DNA of 64,000 nt from Chiloscyllium plagiosum. Taxonomy: Eukaryota. The notes below the pieces were generated by a model. That model was not told where the DNA came from, made no database searches, and was given only the letters and a program-made list of their open reading frames with translations. The stretch covers positions 11,976,679-12,040,678 of the forward strand of contig NC_057745.1 in NCBI RefSeq assembly GCF_004010195.1. Reading direction: 5' to 3'. This document shows, one piece after another, positions 19,378-62,200 of this stretch (its first letter is position 1; every line of letters starts with the position of its first letter). The position numbers and the translations under genes were made by a program.

Positions 19378-20474
19378 TAAGTGTAATTAAAGTCAGGGTC
19401 ACACAAACAGTCACTCCTATACTTTCGTTAGTCCCAAAAACTGTTAACTTTTGACAAGTTTGACCATGTTAGGCTGAATTATGGCAGAAAACGTGTACAT
19501 TTTGGAAAGTGGTGTAATTTAAGTGTATAATAGCTATTAGAAATGTTAATATTCTTTGTTTCCCATTTATCTGATGCTGTAATGTTCAATTTACTTCCTT
19601 TCATCACTGCTTTTCCAAATAAAAGTTTGAAACACAGCTGCAGTTCATGTCTGCTTTTTCACTAGCTTTTCAGAAATGAGCTCACAACATTATGCAGATC
19701 CTCACTGGCACATCGACATAGAGCTGAGACAGTGGGAGAGTTGGGGGCCTGGGATTTGGTTTCCATTAATTGGATTCAAAACAACAAATGACTACTGGAA
19801 CGGTCAACCTGCCCAGGGATATTATAATACAATCTGAAGCAGATGGGATTTGAACATTGTGCCCCATGCTCTAGAGTAGAGATACTACCACGGCACCACA
19901 AGAGCTCCAAGCAGTGAACTGATATTTAAGTGAAATTGATCAGATAGTTACTAATCAATCTGCTCAAAGATATCATGCTCCTAGAGCAGGCCAGACTTGA
20001 ACCCAGGTGTCCTGGTTTAAGAGGTAGGGACACTGCTAATGTACCTCAAGGCCCCCCAAACAGTCAGCTGGCTACAAACATTGTCAACTGTTTCCAGCTG
20101 GTCCCAATTTCCATTCAGCAATTAGACTCAACTAATCTTGTTAAACTGATTTTTCCATCTCGGGTTCAGTCACTAGCCTCCCCAGAGATACCAAGTACCA
20201 GAATGAATTTGTCCTTATTGAACCATGCTTAACTCACTTTGGGAACCAAAGTTACCGAAAAGGAAACATTCACTCTTATAATTTCCCCAATCCCAAAGTC
20301 ATCGTGAGAGCCTTTTTAAGGGAGATGCAGACAAAGTCTGTCATTATGAAGCGCACAAGAAATATTTTAATGGGACGGTTTCAAACACTGTGCCTGAATC
20401 ACAGAAGTGAACATTCATCTTTTTAAAATAGTAAATGAGTCAAAAAAAATCCTACCCTTGTTACTTCTACTCAC

Positions 20475-20655
20475 CAGCCATTGATGACCCCGTCAGGATT
20501 TAGCATGGGAATGATTTTGAAAATGTAGGAGTCCCGTAGACTGCGAGCAATGGGATCATTACTCAAGAGAAATTCCAGTGTACCCTTTATGACCCAGCTG
20601 GCGTTGCTCTCCCCTGGATGGACTCGGGCTGTTAGCACCACGTACTGCCGATTCC
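20475..20655 (-). CDS. AGBL1: AGBL1/CCP4 internal coding exon D (181 bp), start of M14 catalytic domain
   Basis: tacag|GG AAT...GGC TG|gtgagt; (W)[59 protein letters not shown] with zinc-binding HPGE and NPDG motifs; phase matches exon C. Confidence 0.95.
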
Positions 20656-21224
20656 CTGTAATATACAGTAGGGTAACTAATCAGAATCCCTTTTACTCTC
20701 CAGTTGTGTTTCATTACCAAAAATCTTTTCCTGGAATTTTGTAGGTATAAAACAACGTGTCTAATCCGCCTCATCTCAGACAGGGATGGCAGTGGATACA
20801 TTTCCTTTGCACAATGCACTGCAAACTGGATTTTCAACTCGCCATTCTACTGACAATCTGGTGGTCTCGTCCAGCCAAATTCATCGTGAGAGTTTGTTTT
20901 AAAGGAAGATGCAGTGTTGGCAATGCCCCATCATACTTTGAGGACCCGGACCAATATATAATGTTAAAACCGTAATGACCAGCTCAACCTCCACTGTTTC
21001 CAGCAATTTGTTTGGGAATGACTACTTTAGTCTGGTAAAAAAGCTGGGCTCTTCCAGATAATATGTGTTGACTCCTATGAGTCAGGGAAGAGGTTGAAAT
21101 ATTTACTTGAATTGCCCCATGCCCTCGCACAACCAAGTTACATTCCCCTTCCGCCACTTAGAGAAAGGGAAAATTCAGGTGATAGACGCTCCCTATAAAT
21201 AAGTCATTTTAAAAAAAACAAAAT

Positions 21225-22562: not shown

Positions 22563-22704
22563 GATGCAATGTATATCCACACACCTGTTGTGTGGAGGCA
22601 AAATAAGACTTTGTGTATACATTGTACATTTCTCATTGAAAATGGTTATGGATATTGTCAATCCTTATTGCATTCACCATGGCAATGCTCTGACCAATCA
22701 GAGT

Positions 22705-22906
22705 TGCAGGGCGTGGTTCTGGAACAGCACAGCAGGTTAGGCAGCATCTGAAGAGCAGGAGAGTTGATGTTTTGGGCATTAGCTTTTCATCAGGAATGCC
22801 CAAAACATTGACTCTCCTGCTCCTCAAATGCTGCCTGACCTGTTGTGCTTTTCCAGCACCACACTTTTCGACTCTGATCTCTAGCATCTGCAGTCCACAC
22901 TTTCTC
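22705..22906. mobile_element. PLE-derived fold-back element
   Basis: Inverted arms around a decayed hammerhead; exact 15-bp TSD ctgaccaatcagagt (22690-22704, 22907-22921). Confidence 0.82.
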
Positions 22907-28858: not shown

Positions 28859-29559
28859 GAGTTGAAAACATGGTACTGTAAAAGCACAGCAAGTTAGGCA
28901 GCATCTGAGGAGTTGGAGAATTGACATTTCAGGCATAAGTCCTTCATCAGGAATGTGTGTGAGGTGGGGGTGAGGGTGGGGGTGAGAGGTGTGGCGAGGG
29001 GAGATGAGGAAATTGGTGAAGTCGATGTTGATGCTGTGTGTTTGGAGGAAGGTGAGGCATTCGTCCTCCAGGCATCGATTGGCTTGAATTTGGTGGTGGA
29101 GGCAGCCCAGGACTTGCATGTCCTTGGCTGAGTGGGAGGGGAGTTGAAGTGAAGTGGTCAGCCACAGGATATTGGGGTTGTTTGGTGAGTGTGTCTCAGA
29201 GACGTTCCCTGAAACGTTTCCATAAGTCGGTGGCCTGTCTTCCTAGTGCAGAGGAGACCACCTCGTGAGCAACAGACACAGTAGATGAGGTGTTTGAATG
29301 TGCAGGAAAATATCTTTCGGATGTGGAAAGATTCTTTGGGGCCTTGGATGGAGGGGCCTTGGGGGTGGGGTGTAAGCGCAGGTTTTACATCTTTTGCAGC
29401 AGCAAGGGAAGGTGCTGGGAGTGAAGGGTGGGTTGATGAGGGGTTGGCGTGGACCTAACAAGGGAGTTGCAGAGGGAATGGTCTCTGCGGAATGCTGATT
29501 GGGGTGGGGAGGGAAATATATCTCTGGTGGTGGGGTCTGATTTTAGGTGACAGAAATGC
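28859..29559 (-). mobile_element. Penelope-like element 3' part (GIY-YIG remnant)
   Basis: 'STFPCCCKRCKTCAY' remnant; hammerhead motif 28922-28951; TSD catttca(c/g)aagaa; paralogous to 25153-26148. Confidence 0.82.
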
Positions 29560-37302: not shown

Positions 37303-37504
37303 TAGTGAGTTTTGAAAAGGTTTGTAGCTCAGTTGAGGTTCTGGATGGAGGTTTGCTCGCTGAGCTGGAAGGTTCATTTTCAGACGTTTCGTCACCATAC
37401 TAGGTAACACCTTCAGTCCGGAGGCTCACTGAAGATATTACCCAGTATGGTGACAAAACGTCTGAAAATGAACCTTCCAGCTCAGCGAGCAAACCTACAT
37501 CCAG
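37303..37504. mobile_element. PLE-derived fold-back element with CUGAAGA-type hammerhead arms
   Basis: Arms 37341-37417 and 37428-37504; TSD-like aggacagtgaat / agggtagtgaat inside host CR1. Confidence 0.8.
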
Positions 37505-39982: not shown

Positions 39983-42900
39983 CTGAAATACCTCCACATA
40001 GGCCAGCATCCCGTCACCCTTTATTTACATGTGGAGAATCCTTGATTCTGATCCAGCCCCCTCAGAGCCAGCTCTCACAGTGAACAGAACATCTGACACT
40101 CCTGTTTATATCTGTCAGCCAAGGCTCCCTGATTGGACCAGGTTAACAGCCCCAATCAGGGGACTTATATTCTATGAGGTCCATCTGGCTGACTCTGTAA
40201 CACTCATGACATCCATCCCCCTCTAAATCCAGGCACATACGCCTGTACTTTCACTTGTAGACCTCTCCTGGGGTGTCTTTGCATCAGGTCTGGTTCCTCC
40301 AAACTGAGCCTCGGATATGGGTGATATTTACTAGAACATAGATTGCCTCCTGCACCCAGAACATCTCTGAAGAAATTCCACCTCTTCTTCAGGGCGTTAA
40401 AGACATTGAGACTGCGACATCTGCTGTATCCATCTCAGATTCCGAGGTTTCATGGACACTAGACAGAGGGGGAGAGCCCACAGATTCCAGCTGTTCTGAG
40501 AAGCCGGGTATGTTTTGTTCCTGTCCAAAGTGCTTGCTAAAGACCATCACGGGACCTGATCTTGTGCCGAGCATGCCTTGTACCCAGGCAGCACCATTTC
40601 TGTGTTTTCAGCACCAAATTTCATCCAATGAAGTAAACTGTCTCTCTGGCTTAGAGGAGTCTTGTGTCTGGTGTTGGCATTCCTAAATGTTCCCCCTTCA
40701 AAAGTCCTGGTGCAGCATCTTCTCCCCATTAGTAACTCTGCTGGAGTTATCCAGTAGTTGCATGACGGGTGATCCAATAATCGAATAGGAACCGGAACAG
40801 TTTGATCTTGGGTGATGCTGGAGTCTGTATCTCCCTTTGCCCTGAGCCACCCCCCCCCCTCTCATTTATCTTTCAACTCCCTTGGGCCACCACCTCATTC
40901 CTGATAAACATCGACTCTCCTACTCCTCAGATGCAGCTTGACCGGCTGTGCTTTTCCAGCGCCACAATTTTTGGCTGTTTCTTTAAGCCTGACTTCAAAT
41001 GTTAGACTGTTCTTTCTGCTAGACTAGTGGGTGATGGTAGGTATGGAGCTGATCTTATATACTGAATGCTGCTTTGACCTTAGGGTATACACAAATTCCC
41101 TCCTGGGTAAATGATGGCCCATTGTCTCTGACCAACATTTCCTCAGGCCCATGTAGCAAAAGTTGCTAGTAGACTTTCTATCATCACTGCCTTGTTTGAC
41201 AAATGACCTCAATTCACATCCAACCAATTGAAATAGACATTCACAATGACGAAGAATGCTAAGCCCATGAAAGGGCCAGCATTGTCAATGTGTAACCGAG
41301 TCTGGAGATTGCCTGGCCATTGGAGAGCTGCTGGCAGTAACTTTAGTCTTGTTGGCACTCTGGGCACTACCCCACCAACACAGCGACGTCTGCATTCAAT
41401 CCTGGTCACCAGACATAACTTTTCACCAACATCTTCATTTTGGAAACCCCTGGATGATCCTGGTGGAGTTCCACCAGTATCTGGCAGCGATCTTTGCTCT
41501 GGAGAGTTACTCTTGTTCCATAGAATAAGATGCCATTATCTACAGTGATCTGATCTCTCCGGGACCGTAAGGTTTCAGTTTTGATTGTGACAGCCCTTTG
41601 GTTTCCCTCATCACCACCAGCTGTTTAAGTTTTGCCCGGACTAGATCTTTCTGTGTCCCATGTCTGATATTGTCAGCTGTGATTGGAAGTGTGTCCAGAA
41701 AATTTAAAACCATTACTGACTCTTTCAATGGCAACACTACTGACAGTGTATCATCTGGGAGAGTTTGCTCATCCACATTTGCTATTTGGCCTCCCAGATG
41801 GTGTTCCAACTTGTAATTGTACATTCTTAGAATGAGAGGCCACTGCTGAATTCAACCTGAAGCTGTGGGCAGCATAGTCCTGTCCTCTTAAGAAGCCCAA
41901 GCAGAGGCTTGTGATCAATTACTATTACAAATTTACATCTGTAAAACAATTGGTGGAACTTTCTCACATCAAAAATAACCGCCAAAACTTCCTTCACTAC
42001 CTGGCATTACCATCAGTGAATCCCTCACTTTCTCTAAGTGCTCTTTATTGGTCTTCCCTATTATCAGTACGTCACTCAGAAAAATGGCGGCCAGGGTAGG
42101 TCTTGTAAAATGTTCTCCATCTTCTGCTGGGAAATGGCACAGGCTGACGATACCCCAGACGGCAGTCTCATATATTGGTACAAACCCTTATGGGTATTAA
42201 TTGTAGCAGACCTCTTGGAATTCTCAACTAACCCCAGTTGCAGGCGGGCATGGCTCACGTTCAGCTTCATGAAGGGTAGGCACTGCCAGTTTTACATATA
42301 AATCCTCTAAGTGAGGTATTAGATCTTTATCCAGCTGCAAAAGGCTGTTTACCTTTTACCTGCAGCATTTAAAATCCCTACAAAGGTGAACCAACCCTTC
42401 AGTCTGCACAGTTGGTACAAACCGGTGCTGAAAATCTGACTGGTTTGATTAGTCCTTCAAGTTCCAGCCTCCTGATTTCTGCCTCTACTCTTATCCGTAA
42501 GGCAAATGGCACTGGGCGGGCCTTGTCGAACATGCAAGGTGACCTTAGCTCCTTTGACAGTCTCTTGACCTTCCTGAAAAACTTCCAAGTAGTTAATTAG
42601 GACTTCACTCAGGCAGCCATTATCTAACCAAAAACTGTTGAACCAATCAAGTGAATCTTTCTCAACTAATTTTGCCCCATCTGGCATGGCCCTGAGCCTT
42701 TTACTACAAACTGTGGTAACTGAACTAGCTGCTTCTCATACGAGACCAGAACCAAAGTTGTCCCCTTAATTAGTAACAGTTCCCCAGTATAGGTTCTTAG
42801 TGTAACAAGGCCATACACAAATGTAAGGGTATGAGTCCAAAGTGAATTTTGTTAAAGACTGTTTCTGCAATTACTGACACATCCACAGCAATACCAACCT

Positions 42901-50537: not shown

Positions 50538-50625
50538 TTGTAATAGTAGATATCAGAACCCACACGAATCCAATGTGGTCTTCCACACAATGCCTCATGG
50601 ACAGAGTACATCACTGGCTGCATAC
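50538..50625 (-). CDS. AGBL1: Cytosolic carboxypeptidase 4 (AGBL1/CCP4), internal coding exon A (88 bp)
   Basis: AG/GT bounded (tgcag|GTATG...ACAA|gtacgt); translates (G)[28 protein letters not shown](K), matching the CCP1/CCP4 GMQP..YSV.EAL...W.R.G..I.YYK segment; ends in phase 2, compatible with exon B. Confidence 0.9.
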
Positions 50626-51000
50626 CTGCAACATAGCACATACAAGTATTAACTTAATTTGTAACAGAAAGTGTGTTGTATATTACGTAGTGTTCCATCA
50701 ATTGAAGGGGAACTAAAGCTTATTCAGAATTTCTCTGATAGAACTGAATCCTCAAACAATCAATAGATTTGATTCCTTGAACCTTGATTAATCCAACTCC
50801 CTACTACTTGCAGAAACCCATCCCTTCAGATTCACAGTGAATCAACCATTCCAGCAACTTTAGAATTTTTTAGCAGCGTGGACAGCTCAACGCTGCTGTG
50901 TATGTGATATGGTTTGGAGATGCTAGTGTTGGACTAGGGTGTACAAAGTTAAAAATCACAACACCAGGTTATAGTCCAACAGGTATAATTGGAAGCACAC

Positions 51001-51029
51001 TAGCTTTCGGAGCATCGCTCCTTCATCAG
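51001..51029 (-). ncRNA. Minimal hammerhead ribozyme motif
   Basis: CAC-CTGATGA-A-GGAGC-GAT-GCTCC-GAAAGCTA-GTG: intact core, 5-bp stem II, AGCT palindrome, 3-bp stem I. Confidence 0.72.
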
Positions 51030-51046
51030 GTGATTGTCACAATCAA

Positions 51047-51075
51047 CTGATGAAGGAGCGTCACTCCGAAAGCTA
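51047..51075 (+). ncRNA. Minimal hammerhead ribozyme motif
   Basis: CTGATGA-A-GGAG-CGTCA-CTCC-GAAAGCTA. Confidence 0.68.
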
Positions 51076-51599
51076 GTGTGCTTCCAATTAAACCTGTTGG
51101 ACTATAACCTGGTGTTGTGTGATTTTTAACTGTGTATGAGATAGGTGTTTTTGCATGTGATCCTGACCTTTTCCATAATGTACTGATTAGCGCTGACGAC
51201 AAATGGGGAAAACTTAAAAAAATCAAAAGTAACCAATTCTTATTTAAAGAGGAAGACAAACCTAGAGCACAAAAACAAAATGAAGTTTGTTAATGAAAAA
51301 TATTTAGCGAAGAAGAGTAAAATTTCTCACACTTAGAACACAATCCATTCCATTGTATATGTGTCTAAAAGGGTTAACATTGATTGATGGAGTTAGCACC
51401 ACCATCTGTGACAATAGCATGAGTCTCTGGGTAAAACAATAGGAGCTGACAGGAGACTGATCCGAGGCTAAGGTTCTTCCTGCAGTCTCTGTATTAATAA
51501 ACATCATGTTATTGTAAACAATAAATTGTTGCACTAATGTAATAAATTTTAAGTTGTTTGCTCAGCAACACTCTTCCAGTTGGACCAAAAAAGGTGGCT

Positions 51600-56721: not shown

Positions 56722-59219
56722 TGTTATGGACTCCCTCAAAACATTTCAAGAAAGTAGCCCAGACCCTAACTTTGTTAGTTGTTTTAGGCTGGTGTAACAG
56801 GGATATTCCAGGAGAGATGCAGCTGGTCAAATCACTTAGTTTTGAACAAAACAGAATTTATTTACAAGATTATTGAATGAAACACAAACAAAAGAGAAGA
56901 GAATACTAAGTAACGTAACCTATCCAAAAACCAACAGATCATCCCAACTTAATGATGCTGTTCCAAATACTTGTAACAATCTCCCTTTCCACAAAAGGTA
57001 AAACCAAACACAGCATCTTACAGGAAAGATGTCAGAGAGAGAGAGAGGATCAGCCTGGACCTGCTTCTCTTGAGCCCAGCAGCTTCCCAATACCACTGAC
57101 TGACTGCCAAAACCAAACCAGAGAAAAGCTGAGCTGGGAGAATCAGCTGCTCCATTTTAATTGTAGAAGATTTTTTCTTAAATCTTGAAAGCCGTTTTCT
57201 TGAGGCAGTATCTGTTAGCTATAAACAAATTGGCCCTAAAACCCTTCCAAGTGCAGACTTTCAGAGTCTGTGTCTTTTACGACCTCCTGAAAAAAAAGCC
57301 AAGGACACTATAAGTTTGTTAAAGGAGCAACACTTCCCCCCCTTAAAAGTAATGAACAATCAAAATCCAAAGATGATTTTTTTCTTAATTGTTAAGTGTT
57401 ACTACTTGACAACACACATATATATTATATTGACTATAAACGTGTAAACATGCACAACTACATTCTGTTTTAGTCTGTTTTACTCCTGCCACCAACACCT
57501 CCTGTCTCTCATTCGAGTTTCAACAATGCGTCGACAATCACATTTGCTCATCCTGCCACATGCACAATTTTCAAATTGAACAGCTGAAACAACAAGCACC
57601 ATCTAAACAGTCTGGCATTTTTGACCTTACATTTTTCCACAATCTTCAATGGGCTATGGTCAGTGTGTTTGATTGTCTGAGATATGTTGCTGGTAACATA
57701 AACATTGAAATGCTGTAACGCTAACACCAAGCTCAAAGTCTCCTTCTCAACTCTCAAATATTTCTGCTGATGAATGTTCAATTTCCTGGACAAATATCAG
57801 ATAGGTCTTTTTATCTTCTCGTCATCTTCCTGCAAGAGTACAGCACCGACACCCACACCCACATCACTAGCATCGATAGCCATTTTGCATGACTTTGCAT
57901 AATTATGTATGGCTAATACTGGGGCAGTGGTTAACACAGCTTTCAGACTGTCAAATGCCTTCTGACAATCTGCTGTCCACTGAAACTTTTTGCCTTTCTT
58001 TAGCAATTCAGTGGGTAGAGCAGTCAGACTGCTAAAATTTGGTCCGAATTTTCGATAAAACCCACTCAATCCCAGGAATCATAGTACTGCTCTTTTTGTT
58101 GATCATATGGGAAATTCACAACTACCTTTGTTTTTGCATCCCATGGGGCCATTTGTCCATCTCTAATAACATGGCCCAAGAAGGTGACTTGGACTTTCGC
58201 AAATCACGTTTTACCAGGTTTATCACCAAACCTGCCTCCCGAAGTCGATCGAACAAGTCTAATAAATATTGTAAATGTTCCTTCCATGTGTGTGACTAAA
58301 AATCACCAGGTCATCAATGTATATGACACAATTGGGCAATCCAACAATGACCTCATTGATTAGTCTCTGAAATGTGGATGAAGCATTTTTCATACCAAAT
58401 GGCATGACTTTAAACTGATATCATCCATTTGGCATTACAAAAGCCAAAATTGCCTTCACTCTTTCTGACACAGTTACCTGCCAGAATCCTCTGAGCAAGT
58501 CCAACTTAGAAATATAAGCTCCTTGTCCCACCTTTTCAACACAGCCTTCCAAACGCGGAATCAAATATGCATCAGTCATTGTAACTGCATTGACTTTGCG
58601 ATGGTCCACACACAACCTTTAGGCACCTTTTGGTTTTGGCACCATTACTATGGGTGAGCTCTAGTCACTGTCGGCATTCAATCTCCTTTTGATCCTGTGC
58701 CAATTTTAGATGGTTATATCTATAAGGATGTTGCTTCATCGGCACAGCATCGCCTATATCTACATTGTGCATAATTAGGTTAGTACTTCCCAGTTTATTT
58801 CTACGTAGCTCCCCATGTGATAGTAATAACTCTTTCAGGTCATTTTGGTTTTCCTCTGAAAGATAACTCAATAATTTATCCCAATTTTTCACAAATTCGT
58901 CATTGTCCAATTTAATTTGAAGAATGTCCAATTCAGAATTGATTCTTCCCTCTGTGTCGTAACCAATAACACATTCGCCTCCTGCTTTCCTTCACTGTCA
59001 AAATAGCCTCTGAGCATATTCACATGACACACTCTGCGAGGTTTCTTTCTGTCTGGAGTCCTTATCAAATAGTTTACCTCACTCAATTTCCTTTTGACTT
59101 GATAAGGTCCAGTAAACCTGGCTTTTAAAGGTTCACCTATCACTGGAAATAACACTAACACTTTATTTCCAAAAGCAAACTTGTGAGTTTTTGATTTCCT
59201 GTCTGCTTCCTGTTTCATG
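56722..59219 (-). mobile_element. 5'-truncated Gmr1-type Ty3/Gypsy element (3' LTR 56722-57332)
   Basis: Minus order: integrase C-terminus (PLKARFTGPYQV...CHVNML), RT (CVDHRKVNAVT..DAY.IPR, SKLDLLRGFWQV), RNase H (AIDASDVG, EKETLSLVLALQHF); PPT 57333-57344; LTR TG..CA. Confidence 0.88.
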
Positions 59220-62200
59220 AGGAAAAGGGTTATGGATAGGATGAGTCAGCTGACCACGGCATCATGGTGCAGAAGGCCACTCAAGGAGGGGAGCAAAAAG
59301 ACAAGTAGTTGTTATAGGGGATTCTATAATTAGGGGGACAGATAGTATCCTTTGCGAACTGGATCAGGAGTCCCGCATGGTGTGTTGCCTGCCTGGTGCC
59401 AGGGTGCAGGACATCTCTGACCAGCTTGAAAGGATATTGGAGCAGGAGGGAGAGGTTCCAGTTGTTGTGGTCCACATTGGCACAAACACTATAGGCAAGG
59501 CGAGGAAGGAGGACCTGTTTGGGGAGTATCAAGCACTAGGAAGGAAATTGAAGAACAGGTCCTTGAGGGTCATAATCTCTGGATTACTACCCAAGCCAAA
59601 TGCTAATTGGCACAGGGATAAGAAAGTTAGGGAAGTAAACACGTGGCTAAGTGATTTGTGTGGGAAAGAGGGATTCCATTTCATGGGACATTGGCATCAG
59701 TTTTGGAACTGGAGGGATTTGTACCGATGGAACGGTCTTCACCTGAACCGATCTGGAACCAGTATTCTGACGAAAAGGATAAATACGGTGGTCACTAGGA
59801 CTTTAAACTTGTGAGTCGGGAAGAAGGGAAAGGGAAAGCAACAGGGAGTGTGGAATCAAGTAGAAAGATAAGCAGCATGAGAGTATGGAGTCAAGTAGAA
59901 AGATAAGCAGCAGGTAAGCATGTGTGCAGCGTTTAAGTTCAAGACAAGCTAGGAATGAAGCAAAAGGCAAGGATAACTTAGGATATACTACGAGAGGTGA
60001 TGGAAATAATGAGGATAAGAAAATTAGCATTAAGGTGCTTTACCTGAATGCTCGTAGTATTCATAACAAAGTAGATGAATTAACAGCAGAGATCATCGTG
60101 AAGATGATGTGGAGTCTGTGTGGATGGAGTTGAGGAACCACAAAGGCAAAAAAACCATAATGGGAGTTATGTACAGACCTCCCAGCAGTGGTCAGGATCA
60201 GGGGCGCAAGATGTACCAGGAAATAGATAGGGCATGTCAGAAAGGCAGGGTCACAGTGATTATGGGGTTCTCAATATGCACAGAGATTGGGTGAATAATG
60301 TTGCCGGTGGATCCAAAGAAAGGGAATTCATGGAATGCTTTCAGGATGGCTTTTTGGAACAGCTGTAATGGAGCCCACAAGGGAGCAGGCTATTCTGGAC
60401 TTAGTGTTATGTAATGAACCCAACTTTATAAAAGATCTTAAAGTAAGGGAACACTTAGGAGGCAGCAATCATAATATGGTAGAGTTCAGTCTGCAGTTTG
60501 AACGAGAGAAGGCCAAATCAGATGTAATGGTGTTACAATTTAATAAAGGTAATTACAGGGGCAAGGGAGAGGAACTGACGAAAATTGACTGGAAGCAGAG
60601 CCTAGTGGGGAAGACAGTAGAGCAACAATGGCAGGAGTTTCTGGGTGTAACTGAGGACACAGTATGGAGGTTCATCCCAGTGTAACTGAGGACACAGTAT
60701 GGAGGTTCATCCCAAAGAAAAGAAAGATTATCCGATGGGGGATTAGAGAGCCATGGCTGACAAAGGAAGTCAGGAAATGTATCATAGAAAAAGAGAGAGC
60801 CTATAAACATTGGAAATCAGAAGATTGGGAAGACTACAAAAACAAACAGAGGATAACAAACAGAGAAATAATGAAGGACAGGATCAAGTATGAAGGTAAG
60901 CTGGTCAGTAATATTAGAAACGATAGTAAAAGTTTCTTTCAATACATAAGAAACAAACGAGAGGCAAAAGTAGAAATTGGGCCATTCCAAATTGATGCAG
61001 GAAGGCTAGTGATAGGAGATAAGAAAATAGCTGAAGAAATTAATAAATACTTTGTGTCAGGCTTCACAGTGGAAGACATGAACAATATCCCAACAATTAA
61101 GGAGAGTCAGAGGGCAGAGTTGAGTATGTTAGCCATTACAAAAGAGAAAGTGCTAGAAAAGCTAAAAGGACTAAAAATTGGCCCCATTTGGAGTACTGTG
61201 TCCCGTTTTGGTCCCCACACCTCAGGAAGGACATACTGTGACTGGAGCGTGTCCAGCGGAGATTCACACGGATGATCACTGGAATGGTAGGTCTAACATA
61301 TGAGGAACGGTTGAGGATCCTGGGATTGTATTCATTGGAGTTTAGAGATTAAGGGGAGATCTAATAGAAACTTACAAGATAATACATGGCTTGGAGAGGG
61401 TGGACGCTAGGAAATTGTTTCCGTTAGGCGAGGAGACTAGGACCCGTGGACACAGCCTTAGAATTAGAGGGGGAAAATTCAGAACAGAAATGCGGAGACA
61501 TTTCTTCAGCCAGAGAGTGGTGGTCCTGTGGAATTCATTGCCGCAGAGTGCAGTGGAGGCTGGGACGCTAAATGTCTTCAAGGCAGAAATTGATAAATTC
61601 TTGATGTCACAAGGAATTAAGGGCTACGGGGAGAATGCGGGTAAGTGGAGTTGAAATGCCCATCAGCCATGATTGAATGGCGGAGTGGACTCGATGGGCC
61701 GAATGGCCTTACTTCCGCTCCTATGTCGTATTGTCTTATGGTCTTAAATTAATAAATCTCCTGGCCCCGATGGGCTACATCCTAAAGTTCTGAGGGAGGT
61801 GGCTGAACAAGTAGTGGAGGCATTGGGTGTAATCTTTCAAAAATCACTAGAGTCAGGGATAGTCCCAGATGATTGGAAAATTGCTGTTGTAACCCCCTTG
61901 GTCAAGAAAGGATCAAGACAAAAATGAAAAATTATAGGCCGATTAGCCTAATCTCGGTTGTAGTTAAAATTCTAGAATCCATCGTTAAGAATGAGATTTC
62001 TAAAGTCTTGGAAGTGCAGGATTGGATTAGAACAAGTCAGCATGGATTTAGTAAGGGGAGGTCAGGCCTGACAAACCTGTTAGAATTCTTTGAAGAGGAA
62101 GCAGGTAGGTTAGACCAGTGAAACCCAGAGGATGTTATGTATCTAAACCTCCAAAAGGCCTTTGATAAGGTGCCTCATGGGGTGCTGCTGAGTAAGGTCA

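What the first reader, a model, noticed from the sequence alone, without database searches (positions are those of the whole stretch)
50896..51143. 220-bp fold-back insertion with an intact hammerhead core on each strand, beside an AGBL1 exon
Seen: near-perfect palindrome centred on 51038 (tgattgt-c-acaatca) with about 90-bp arms, a 14-bp TSD, and CTGATGA-stemII-GAAAGCTA on both arms. It lies about 285 nt 5' of the exon A acceptor. Known: Penelope-like elements carry minimal type-I hammerheads whose palindromic stem III favours dimeric cleavage, and often have inverted terminal copies. Inference: either strand's transcript contains one ribozyme plus its own antisense. This gives a potential kinetic switch between co-transcriptional self-cleavage and a long dsRNA hairpin (ADAR/Dicer substrate) inside the pre-mRNA.
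Basis: partly seen in the sequence, partly recalled or inferred. Interest (0 to 1): 0.7.

Follow-up and report, generated by a model that had tools for sequence, protein, structure and literature searches.

The report
Penelope retroelement leader palindrome in intron
This mirror-image DNA in a host gene's intron is one of at least 2,200 such stubs left by a Penelope-type jumping gene, two back-to-back copies of the front end of its RNA that likely arose during insertion, and its ribozyme is predicted to be locked shut rather than acting as a switch.

Summary
The palindrome, the target duplication and two hammerhead cores are real. It is an ordinary insertion of a Neptune-like Penelope retroelement: 31,316 exact copies of a 29-mer of its end and 2,198 fold-backs with both cores lie in this genome. 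The two arms are the element's 5' leader. Both start 30 nt behind a TATA box; one runs 129 nt to the ORF's start codon (the known 'tail'), the other stops at about 92 nt. Family copies that stop at this start carry an extra G far in excess (69 of 100 non-C cases), as a copied RNA cap would give, so both target nicks likely primed short run-off cDNAs that joined head to head. The proposed kinetic switch is not supported: on either strand the antisense is transcribed before the ribozyme, the open fold costs 34-53 kcal/mol, stem I is 3 bp or broken, and core bases decay at the neutral rate (4.6% vs 5.2%). Editing of this copy was untestable. Earlier unchecked notes of this scan reached the same reading on other DNA.

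The parts
50896..50909 (+). Target-site duplication, left copy (11-bp unambiguous core, up to 14 with bases shared with the element ends)
   Evidence: family TSDs in 53 of 68 fold-backs against 10 of 334 mismatched-flank controls
50909..51037 (-). Long arm: whole 5' leader of the Penelope-like element RNA, from the inferred start (+1) to the AT of the ORF start codon
   Evidence: 7 of 30 loci holding the ORF's N-terminal part carry this unit, in the same orientation, directly before the ATG
50909..50945 (-). One-sided 'tail' (about 37 nt), between the two reverse-transcription start points
   Evidence: tail on exactly one arm in 61 of 68 fold-backs, on both in 0; arm ends form two clusters, 64 and 59 of 128
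50984..50989 (-). Poly(A) signal of the leader in host-gene sense, changed to ATTATA in this copy
   Evidence: sequence; family has T at 50985 on +
51001..51029 (-). Minimal type I hammerhead motif, host-gene sense: core intact, stem II 5 bp, stem I 3 bp, predicted cut after 51001
51038..51038 (.). Single central base (G before +1 on the - arm): fits a copied cap, but in this copy it could also be the templated -1 base of the + arm
51039..51131 (+). Short arm: leader from +1 to about +92, no tail
51047..51075 (+). Minimal hammerhead motif, antisense to the host gene: core intact, stem II 4 bp, first stem I pair lost
51087..51092 (+). ATTAAA poly(A) signal; used in RNA from other copies of the family
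   Evidence: poly(A) loose ends behind 51104 and 51107 in 253 and 246 of 1327 laid reads
51130..51143 (+). Target-site duplication, right copy
50538..50625 (-). Coding exon of the host cytosolic carboxypeptidase gene (AGBL1/AGTPBP1 type), 284 nt downstream of the insertion
20474..20656 (-). Peptidase M14 exon of the same host gene

Best explanation
It is an insertion stub of an abundant endonuclease-bearing Penelope-like retroelement, made of two head-to-head copies of the element's 5' RNA leader, likely formed when both target nicks primed short cDNAs that ran off the capped RNA end, and it is likely a passive passenger in the intron with its ribozyme predicted to be locked in the hairpin. 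Shown: family, copy number, leader identity (TATA 30 nt before, ATG directly after), one-sided tail, TSD, excess G at the start, neutral decay. Inferred: the endonuclease nicks both strands about 12-13 nt apart; reverse transcriptase starts inside the RNA at two points (about +92 and at the AUG, +129), copies about 100 nt to the cap, adds a C opposite it; the two cDNA ends are joined, often through that base. In the host pre-mRNA the arms would pair as they are made into a ~95-bp duplex, a likely but untested ADAR substrate that leaves with the intron.
For: Copy number: 14,834 exact hammerhead 32-mers, 31,316 exact 29-mers of the 3' part, 2,198 fold-backs with a 4-30 nt centre. Parent: the unit lies in the same orientation downstream of an RT + C-x4-C-x2-C + GIY-YIG-like frame in 18 of 20 loci picked by the endonuclease part (RVT_1 E 1e-7), and directly before the ORF's ATG in 7 of 30 N-terminal loci. 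TATAWA begins 30 nt before the arm start in 22 of 29 read-through copies, 32 in 6, 28 in 1. Base before the arm start genome-wide: C 20,162, non-C 4,338; of the first 100 non-C listed 69 G, 22 T, 9 A (counted by hand); in all 28 G-preceded arms in my loci the family sequence stops at the G (one was mislabelled by the word test but shows an inverted partner), whereas 36 of 52 C-preceded arms read on into the body. Tail on one arm 61 of 68; TSD 53 of 68. Arms of one insertion differ at a common 2-nt variant in 7 of 37 pairs. Neutral decay: core 25/548 vs control 40/764, p 0.61; catalytic G12 at a CpG 6/54; core intact in 30 of 55 arms (45 of 100 arms dropped because homology did not clearly reach 5' of the core). 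Folding. In vitro, a Penelope protein cuts and extends both strands, starts at two internal sites that bound the tail, and is predicted dimeric (PMC11167929, main text read).
Against: The RNA start and cap are inferred from DNA, not mapped. In several G-preceded junctions the G can also be read as the partner arm's base, and in this copy the central base fits either reading. Arms agree more often than random pairs (indel 30/37 vs 0.59 expected; PAS variant 40/43 vs 0.71), which also fits copying of one cDNA or later conversion. Clade rests on motifs, no tree; Pfam gave no GIY-YIG hit. The insertion is shared with a related organism B, so it has been kept for some time; this is expected of neutral fixed insertions but does not exclude a role.
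Confidence: 0.72

Rival explanations
1. Same element, but the palindrome arose by self-priming fold-back of a single cDNA (or on an antisense template), as proposed for Adineta Penelope elements, not by two primings.
For: Head-to-head junction palindromes were read this way in PMC3846280 (discussion passage seen). Arms are more alike than random pairs.
Against: It does not by itself give two different, fixed 3' ends with the tail on exactly one arm (61 of 68), a G at the start whatever the partner is, or 7 of 37 pairs discordant at a common variant.
Confidence: 0.18
2. One reading: the host pre-mRNA either self-cleaves at the hammerhead or folds into the hairpin, regulating the host gene.
For: The host-sense core is intact with a 5-bp stem II (pair probability 0.98-1.0 in the isolated arm); the insertion is shared by two organisms; a related hammerhead is protein-assisted (PMC11167929).
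Against: Antisense is transcribed first; open fold 34-53 kcal/mol worse; stem I probability 0.0 even in the isolated arm; cofolding two short pieces did not give the dimeric hammerhead; one core per strand; neutral decay across copies; family reads run through the cut site with no pile-up of ends (weak: other copies, poly(A) library).
Confidence: 0.03
3. A self-standing non-autonomous palindromic element (MITE-like or retrozyme-like) that spreads as a unit.
For: Thousands of similar-sized palindromes with TSDs.
Against: Centres differ from copy to copy, gaps between arms range from 0 to about 1,000 nt of element body, no tandem arrays here, and the unit is the leader of the full element.
Confidence: 0.05

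Closest known systems
Endonuclease-bearing Penelope-like elements with inverted 5'-truncated pLTR, 30-40 bp tail and TSD (PMC8557442 passages; Adineta vaga Pen2a_Av, PMC3846280 passages)
   Same: Head-to-head inverted copy, tail on one side, TSD, hammerhead in the pLTR, RT with C-terminal GIY-YIG-like domain and the C-x2-5-C-x2-C linker of Neptune.
   Different: Here the whole insertion is only the two leader copies (about 220 bp), the tail ends exactly at the AUG instead of including ORF codons, and the arm start coincides with a TATA-defined start bearing an extra G.
Minimal type I hammerheads of metazoan PLEs (PMC4209133, results and discussion read)
   Same: Core, extra base between 9 and 10.1, G10.1-C11.1, palindromic 15.2-16.2; the paper already notes dual motifs 100-700 bp apart on opposite strands.
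   Different: Helix II 4-5 bp and helix I 3 bp or broken, shorter than the 7-8 and 4-5 bp given for Schistosoma; cores only 17 nt apart.
Poseidon element PAc of Anolis (PMC11167929, main text read)
   Same: Two internal reverse-transcription starts that bound the tail near the 5' end of the RNA; both strands cut and extended; hammerhead dispensable for insertion.
   Different: In PAc the ORF starts inside the hammerhead and the starts lie 111-118 nt into the ORF; the paper does not describe joined run-off products in the parts read.
L1 twin priming and cap-derived extra G (PMC11702581 passages)
   Same: Second priming from the other target end gives an inversion with an intact TSD; full-length copies carry an extra G.
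   Different: L1 inversions cover adjacent parts of one RNA; here both arms copy the same leader.
Palindromic Harbinger repeats of Xenopus as ADAR substrates (PMC5625713 passages)
   Same: A ~220-nt self-folding repeat in transcripts; the paper also lists lizard Penelope as heavily edited.
   Different: DNA transposon; editing of the present copy was not measurable.

Membership tests
EN+ Penelope-like element (Neptune type) | Reverse transcriptase ORF linked to the same terminal unit | tested here: met
   RVT_1 E 1.1e-7 in L065; unit downstream in 18 of 20 loci and before the ATG in 7 of 30
EN+ Penelope-like element (Neptune type) | C-terminal GIY-YIG endonuclease | tested here: inconclusive
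   VVY..C...C...YIGET motif seen by eye (motif recalled); no Pfam or PDB hit
EN+ Penelope-like element (Neptune type) | C-x2-5-C-x2-C linker between RT and EN | tested here: met
   C-x4-C-x2-C in L061, L065, L066 translations; feature named in PMC8557442
EN+ Penelope-like element (Neptune type) | Inverted or direct pLTR, one-sided 30-40 bp tail, TSD | tested here: met
EN+ Penelope-like element (Neptune type) | Placement in the Neptune clade on an RT tree | not tested
   no reference PLE proteins fetched
Minimal type I hammerhead of PLEs | CUGANGA / GAAA / UH core, bulged base, G10.1-C11.1, palindromic helix III | tested here: met
   Rfam hammerhead models gave no hit, as expected for a motif without helix III
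Minimal type I hammerhead of PLEs | Helix I of 4-5 bp | tested here: not met
   3 bp on -, first pair lost on +
Minimal type I hammerhead of PLEs | Self-cleavage as a dimer | not testable with these tools
   needs an in vitro assay
Non-LTR retrozyme | Tandem repeat units each with a hammerhead | tested here: not met
   two inverted copies only in the window; definition from 10.64898/2026.07.22.740005 (first part read)
MITE | Uniform copies with symmetric terminal inverted repeats | tested here: not met
   one-sided tail, copy-specific centres

The most novel reading that the evidence does not exclude
Penelope-like elements routinely prime reverse transcription from both target nicks on the short capped 5' leader of their RNA, at the two known internal start sites, and join the two run-off cDNAs head to head; the thousands of stubs in this genome record start site, cap and both priming points at base resolution and explain the inverted pLTR plus tail of the whole class.
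Probability: 0.6. Interest if true: 0.55.

Novelty: new member of a known kind. Interest (0 to 1): 0.3.

Why it matters
As a locus it is ordinary: one of thousands, with no sign of a host function. As a family it gives a testable account of a long-unexplained feature of Penelope-like elements (inverted pLTR with a one-sided tail), and it implies thousands of near-perfect ~95-bp hairpins and portable poly(A) signals in this animal's introns and UTRs.

Tried and rejected
Rfam scan: no hammerhead hit, only weak miRNA-precursor matches that any long hairpin gives. First exon translation and Pfam scan used the wrong frame; the 28-aa right frame gave no Pfam hit. Pfam on two short ORF pieces and PDB search on the long ORF found no GIY-YIG. 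No RNA holder of the locus was listed; in the RNA lay no read or contig covered the unique intron flanks and run X22 laid 0 reads, so editing, small RNAs and cleavage of this copy were not testable; A>G differences there come from other copies and cannot be called editing. No empty site was seen: both junctions are present in organism B, so the TSD is not checked against a pre-insertion allele. Mapping of 5' truncation points against L015 was blunted by subfamily differences and an N run; it shows only that few arms (3 of 101) begin at the hammerhead cut, so template shortening by self-cleavage was rejected. Paper searches for the two-primer reading (listings only) and for shark Penelope palindromes found nothing that states it; the library lacks most subscription papers and supplements were not read. 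Look-up of earlier findings by sequence gave nothing.

Full report
Observation. The region holds inverted arms 50957-51037 and 51039-51119 (81 nt, 94% complementary, one base apart), extended by 50942-50960/51118-51136, and a 14-nt direct repeat with one mismatch at 50896-50909/51130-51143. It folds at -167.6 kcal/mol, z -19.3. Each strand has one CTGATGA-A-stem II-GAAAGCTA motif; Rfam has no matching model. The insertion is asymmetric: the left arm runs about 37 nt further, to 50909. It lies 284 nt before an 88-nt exon (50538-50625, - strand) of a cytosolic carboxypeptidase gene. One paralogous locus exists on C2; I did not test which is AGBL1. The repeats look like those of a shark (recalled, and so stated in earlier notes).

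It is one of thousands. The 3.56-Gb genome has 14,834 exact matches to the hammerhead 32-mer, 31,316 to a 29-mer further 3' and 2,198 places where two exact half-cores face outwards 4-30 nt apart; all are lower bounds because exact. In the first 100 arms of chromosome C1 picked by the 29-mer, 46 have an inverted partner within 230 nt and 51 carry the tail. Among 68 fold-backs in my loci (some picked for being fold-backs) the tail is on one arm in 61, on none in 7, on both in 0, and a TSD is found in 53, mostly 10-14 bp, against 10 of 334 mismatched-flank controls. The same window holds two more fold-backs of other hammerhead-bearing families.

The parent element. Upstream of the unit in longer copies lies a frame with RT motifs (RVT_1, E 1.1e-7), a C-x4-C-x2-C linker and a GIY-YIG-like stretch. 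The unit follows it in the same orientation in 18 of 20 loci picked by the endonuclease part. This is the layout of Neptune-type Penelope-like elements, whose inverted truncated copies, 30-40 bp tail and pLTR hammerheads are described (PMC8557442 and PMC3846280, passages; PMC4209133, results and discussion). The insertion predates the split from a related organism B: contigs of B enter it from both unique flanks, with 14 differences in 640 flank bases.

The arms are the RNA leader. Of 30 loci picked by an N-terminal part of the ORF, 7 carry the unit in the same orientation at a fixed distance, and in all 7 the tail ends directly at the ATG that opens the ORF; one more same-orientation match lies at another distance, and the rest show inverted copies or no unit upstream. 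In copies that read further 5', TATAWA starts 30 nt before the arm's first base in 22 of 29. Both arms of the window copy start exactly there. Genome-wide the base before this start is the templated C in 20,162 copies and another base in 4,338; among the first 100 of those listed, 69 are G, 22 T, 9 A (my hand count). A C-to-G change should be no commoner than C-to-A, and in all 28 G-preceded arms in my loci the family sequence ends at the G, whatever lies beyond. An extra G marks cap copying in full-length L1 insertions (PMC11702581, passage). Arm 3' ends fall in two clusters, 64 and 59 of 128, with 46 at one base near the AUG, matching the two internal start sites that bound the tail in the Anolis element, which also cuts and extends both strands (PMC11167929, main text). 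I infer two short cDNAs, primed from the two nicks, run to the cap and joined head to head. Against this: the G can be read as the partner's base at several junctions, including this one; arms agree more than random pairs (30 of 37, 40 of 43), though not always; start and cap are not mapped in RNA. PMC3846280 proposed self-priming instead, which remains the main rival. I had a lead on two-ended priming from earlier notes; the TATA and extra-G tests were run before I saw notes stating them.

The switch. Because both cores point outwards, the antisense arm is transcribed first on either strand. At 8 transcript lengths per strand the core is predicted paired (mean unpaired probability 0.001-0.12), stem II probability is below 1e-7, and forcing the hammerhead open costs 34-53 kcal/mol (equilibrium folds of prefixes, not true kinetics). 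In the isolated host-sense arm stem II forms but the 3-bp stem I does not; on + the first stem I pair is lost. Single minimal hammerheads did not cleave in vitro (PMC4209133) and the Anolis one needed protein (PMC11167929). Across 55 arms whose homology reaches past the core (45 of 100 dropped), non-CpG core positions differ in 25 of 548 (4.6%) against 40 of 764 (5.2%) control positions, p 0.61; G12 at a CpG differs in 6 of 54; 30 of 55 keep an intact core. Two intact cores in one copy are thus unremarkable. A long hairpin in the pre-mRNA is likely and palindromic repeats are known ADAR substrates (PMC5625713, passages), but no RNA covered this intron's unique flanks.

RNA of the family. In one poly(A) run of the same species label, 1,327 reads from other copies were laid; 253 and 246 end in poly(A) behind 51104 and 51107, 12-15 nt after ATTAAA/AATAAA, reads cross the predicted cut site, and no pile-up of ends was listed. 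The leader's poly(A) signal therefore works in some copies. In this copy the host-sense signal is changed to ATTATA while the antisense one is intact; one case, so chance or selection cannot be told.

Verdict. Real, known in kind, and ordinary as a locus; the regulatory switch is not supported. The value lies in the family-wide evidence for how these insertions form, which my paper searches did not find in print but which earlier unchecked notes of this scan also reached on other DNA.

Noticed in passing
window 37341-37504: Fold-back of a second hammerhead-bearing family (77-nt arms, 94%); one core has lost A9, the other G12 at a CpG; no clear TSD.
   Followed up: partly
window 22697-22895: Older fold-back of a third hammerhead-bearing family with a perfect 15-bp TSD; further single copies at 342-369 and 28923-28950.
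   Followed up: partly
L170 1392-1620 (G000:C1 near 8,039,400): Chimeric fold-back: a full leader with G at its start joined to an arm that begins as this family and switches to the second family's leader; 1 of 82 pairs; suggests template jumping between families; no clear TSD.
   Followed up: partly
window 50985 and 51087-51107: The family's poly(A) signal is used in RNA of other copies; in this copy it is mutated only in host-gene sense.
   Followed up: partly
window 50942-51037 (-): The isolated arm's best fold pairs the 5' strand of stem I with a downstream GGUGUUGU and puts the poly(A) signal in a hairpin loop: a possible way for the element's leader to silence both ribozyme and premature polyadenylation.
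   Followed up: no
window 51060-51062 and 51014-51016: Common loop II variants GTC and GAC are reverse complements of each other, suggesting micro-inversion inside the stem II hairpin.
   Followed up: no
L047 1121-7141 (G000:C15:70,580,000-70,588,400): A 6-kb head-to-head pair of long 5'-truncated copies with RT and endonuclease frames on both strands: the large end of the same size series.
   Followed up: partly
window 57548-59245 (-) and 40547-42735 (-): Broken Gypsy-like retrotransposon frames (RT/RNase H, integrase-like) in the same gene's introns, by eye.
   Followed up: no
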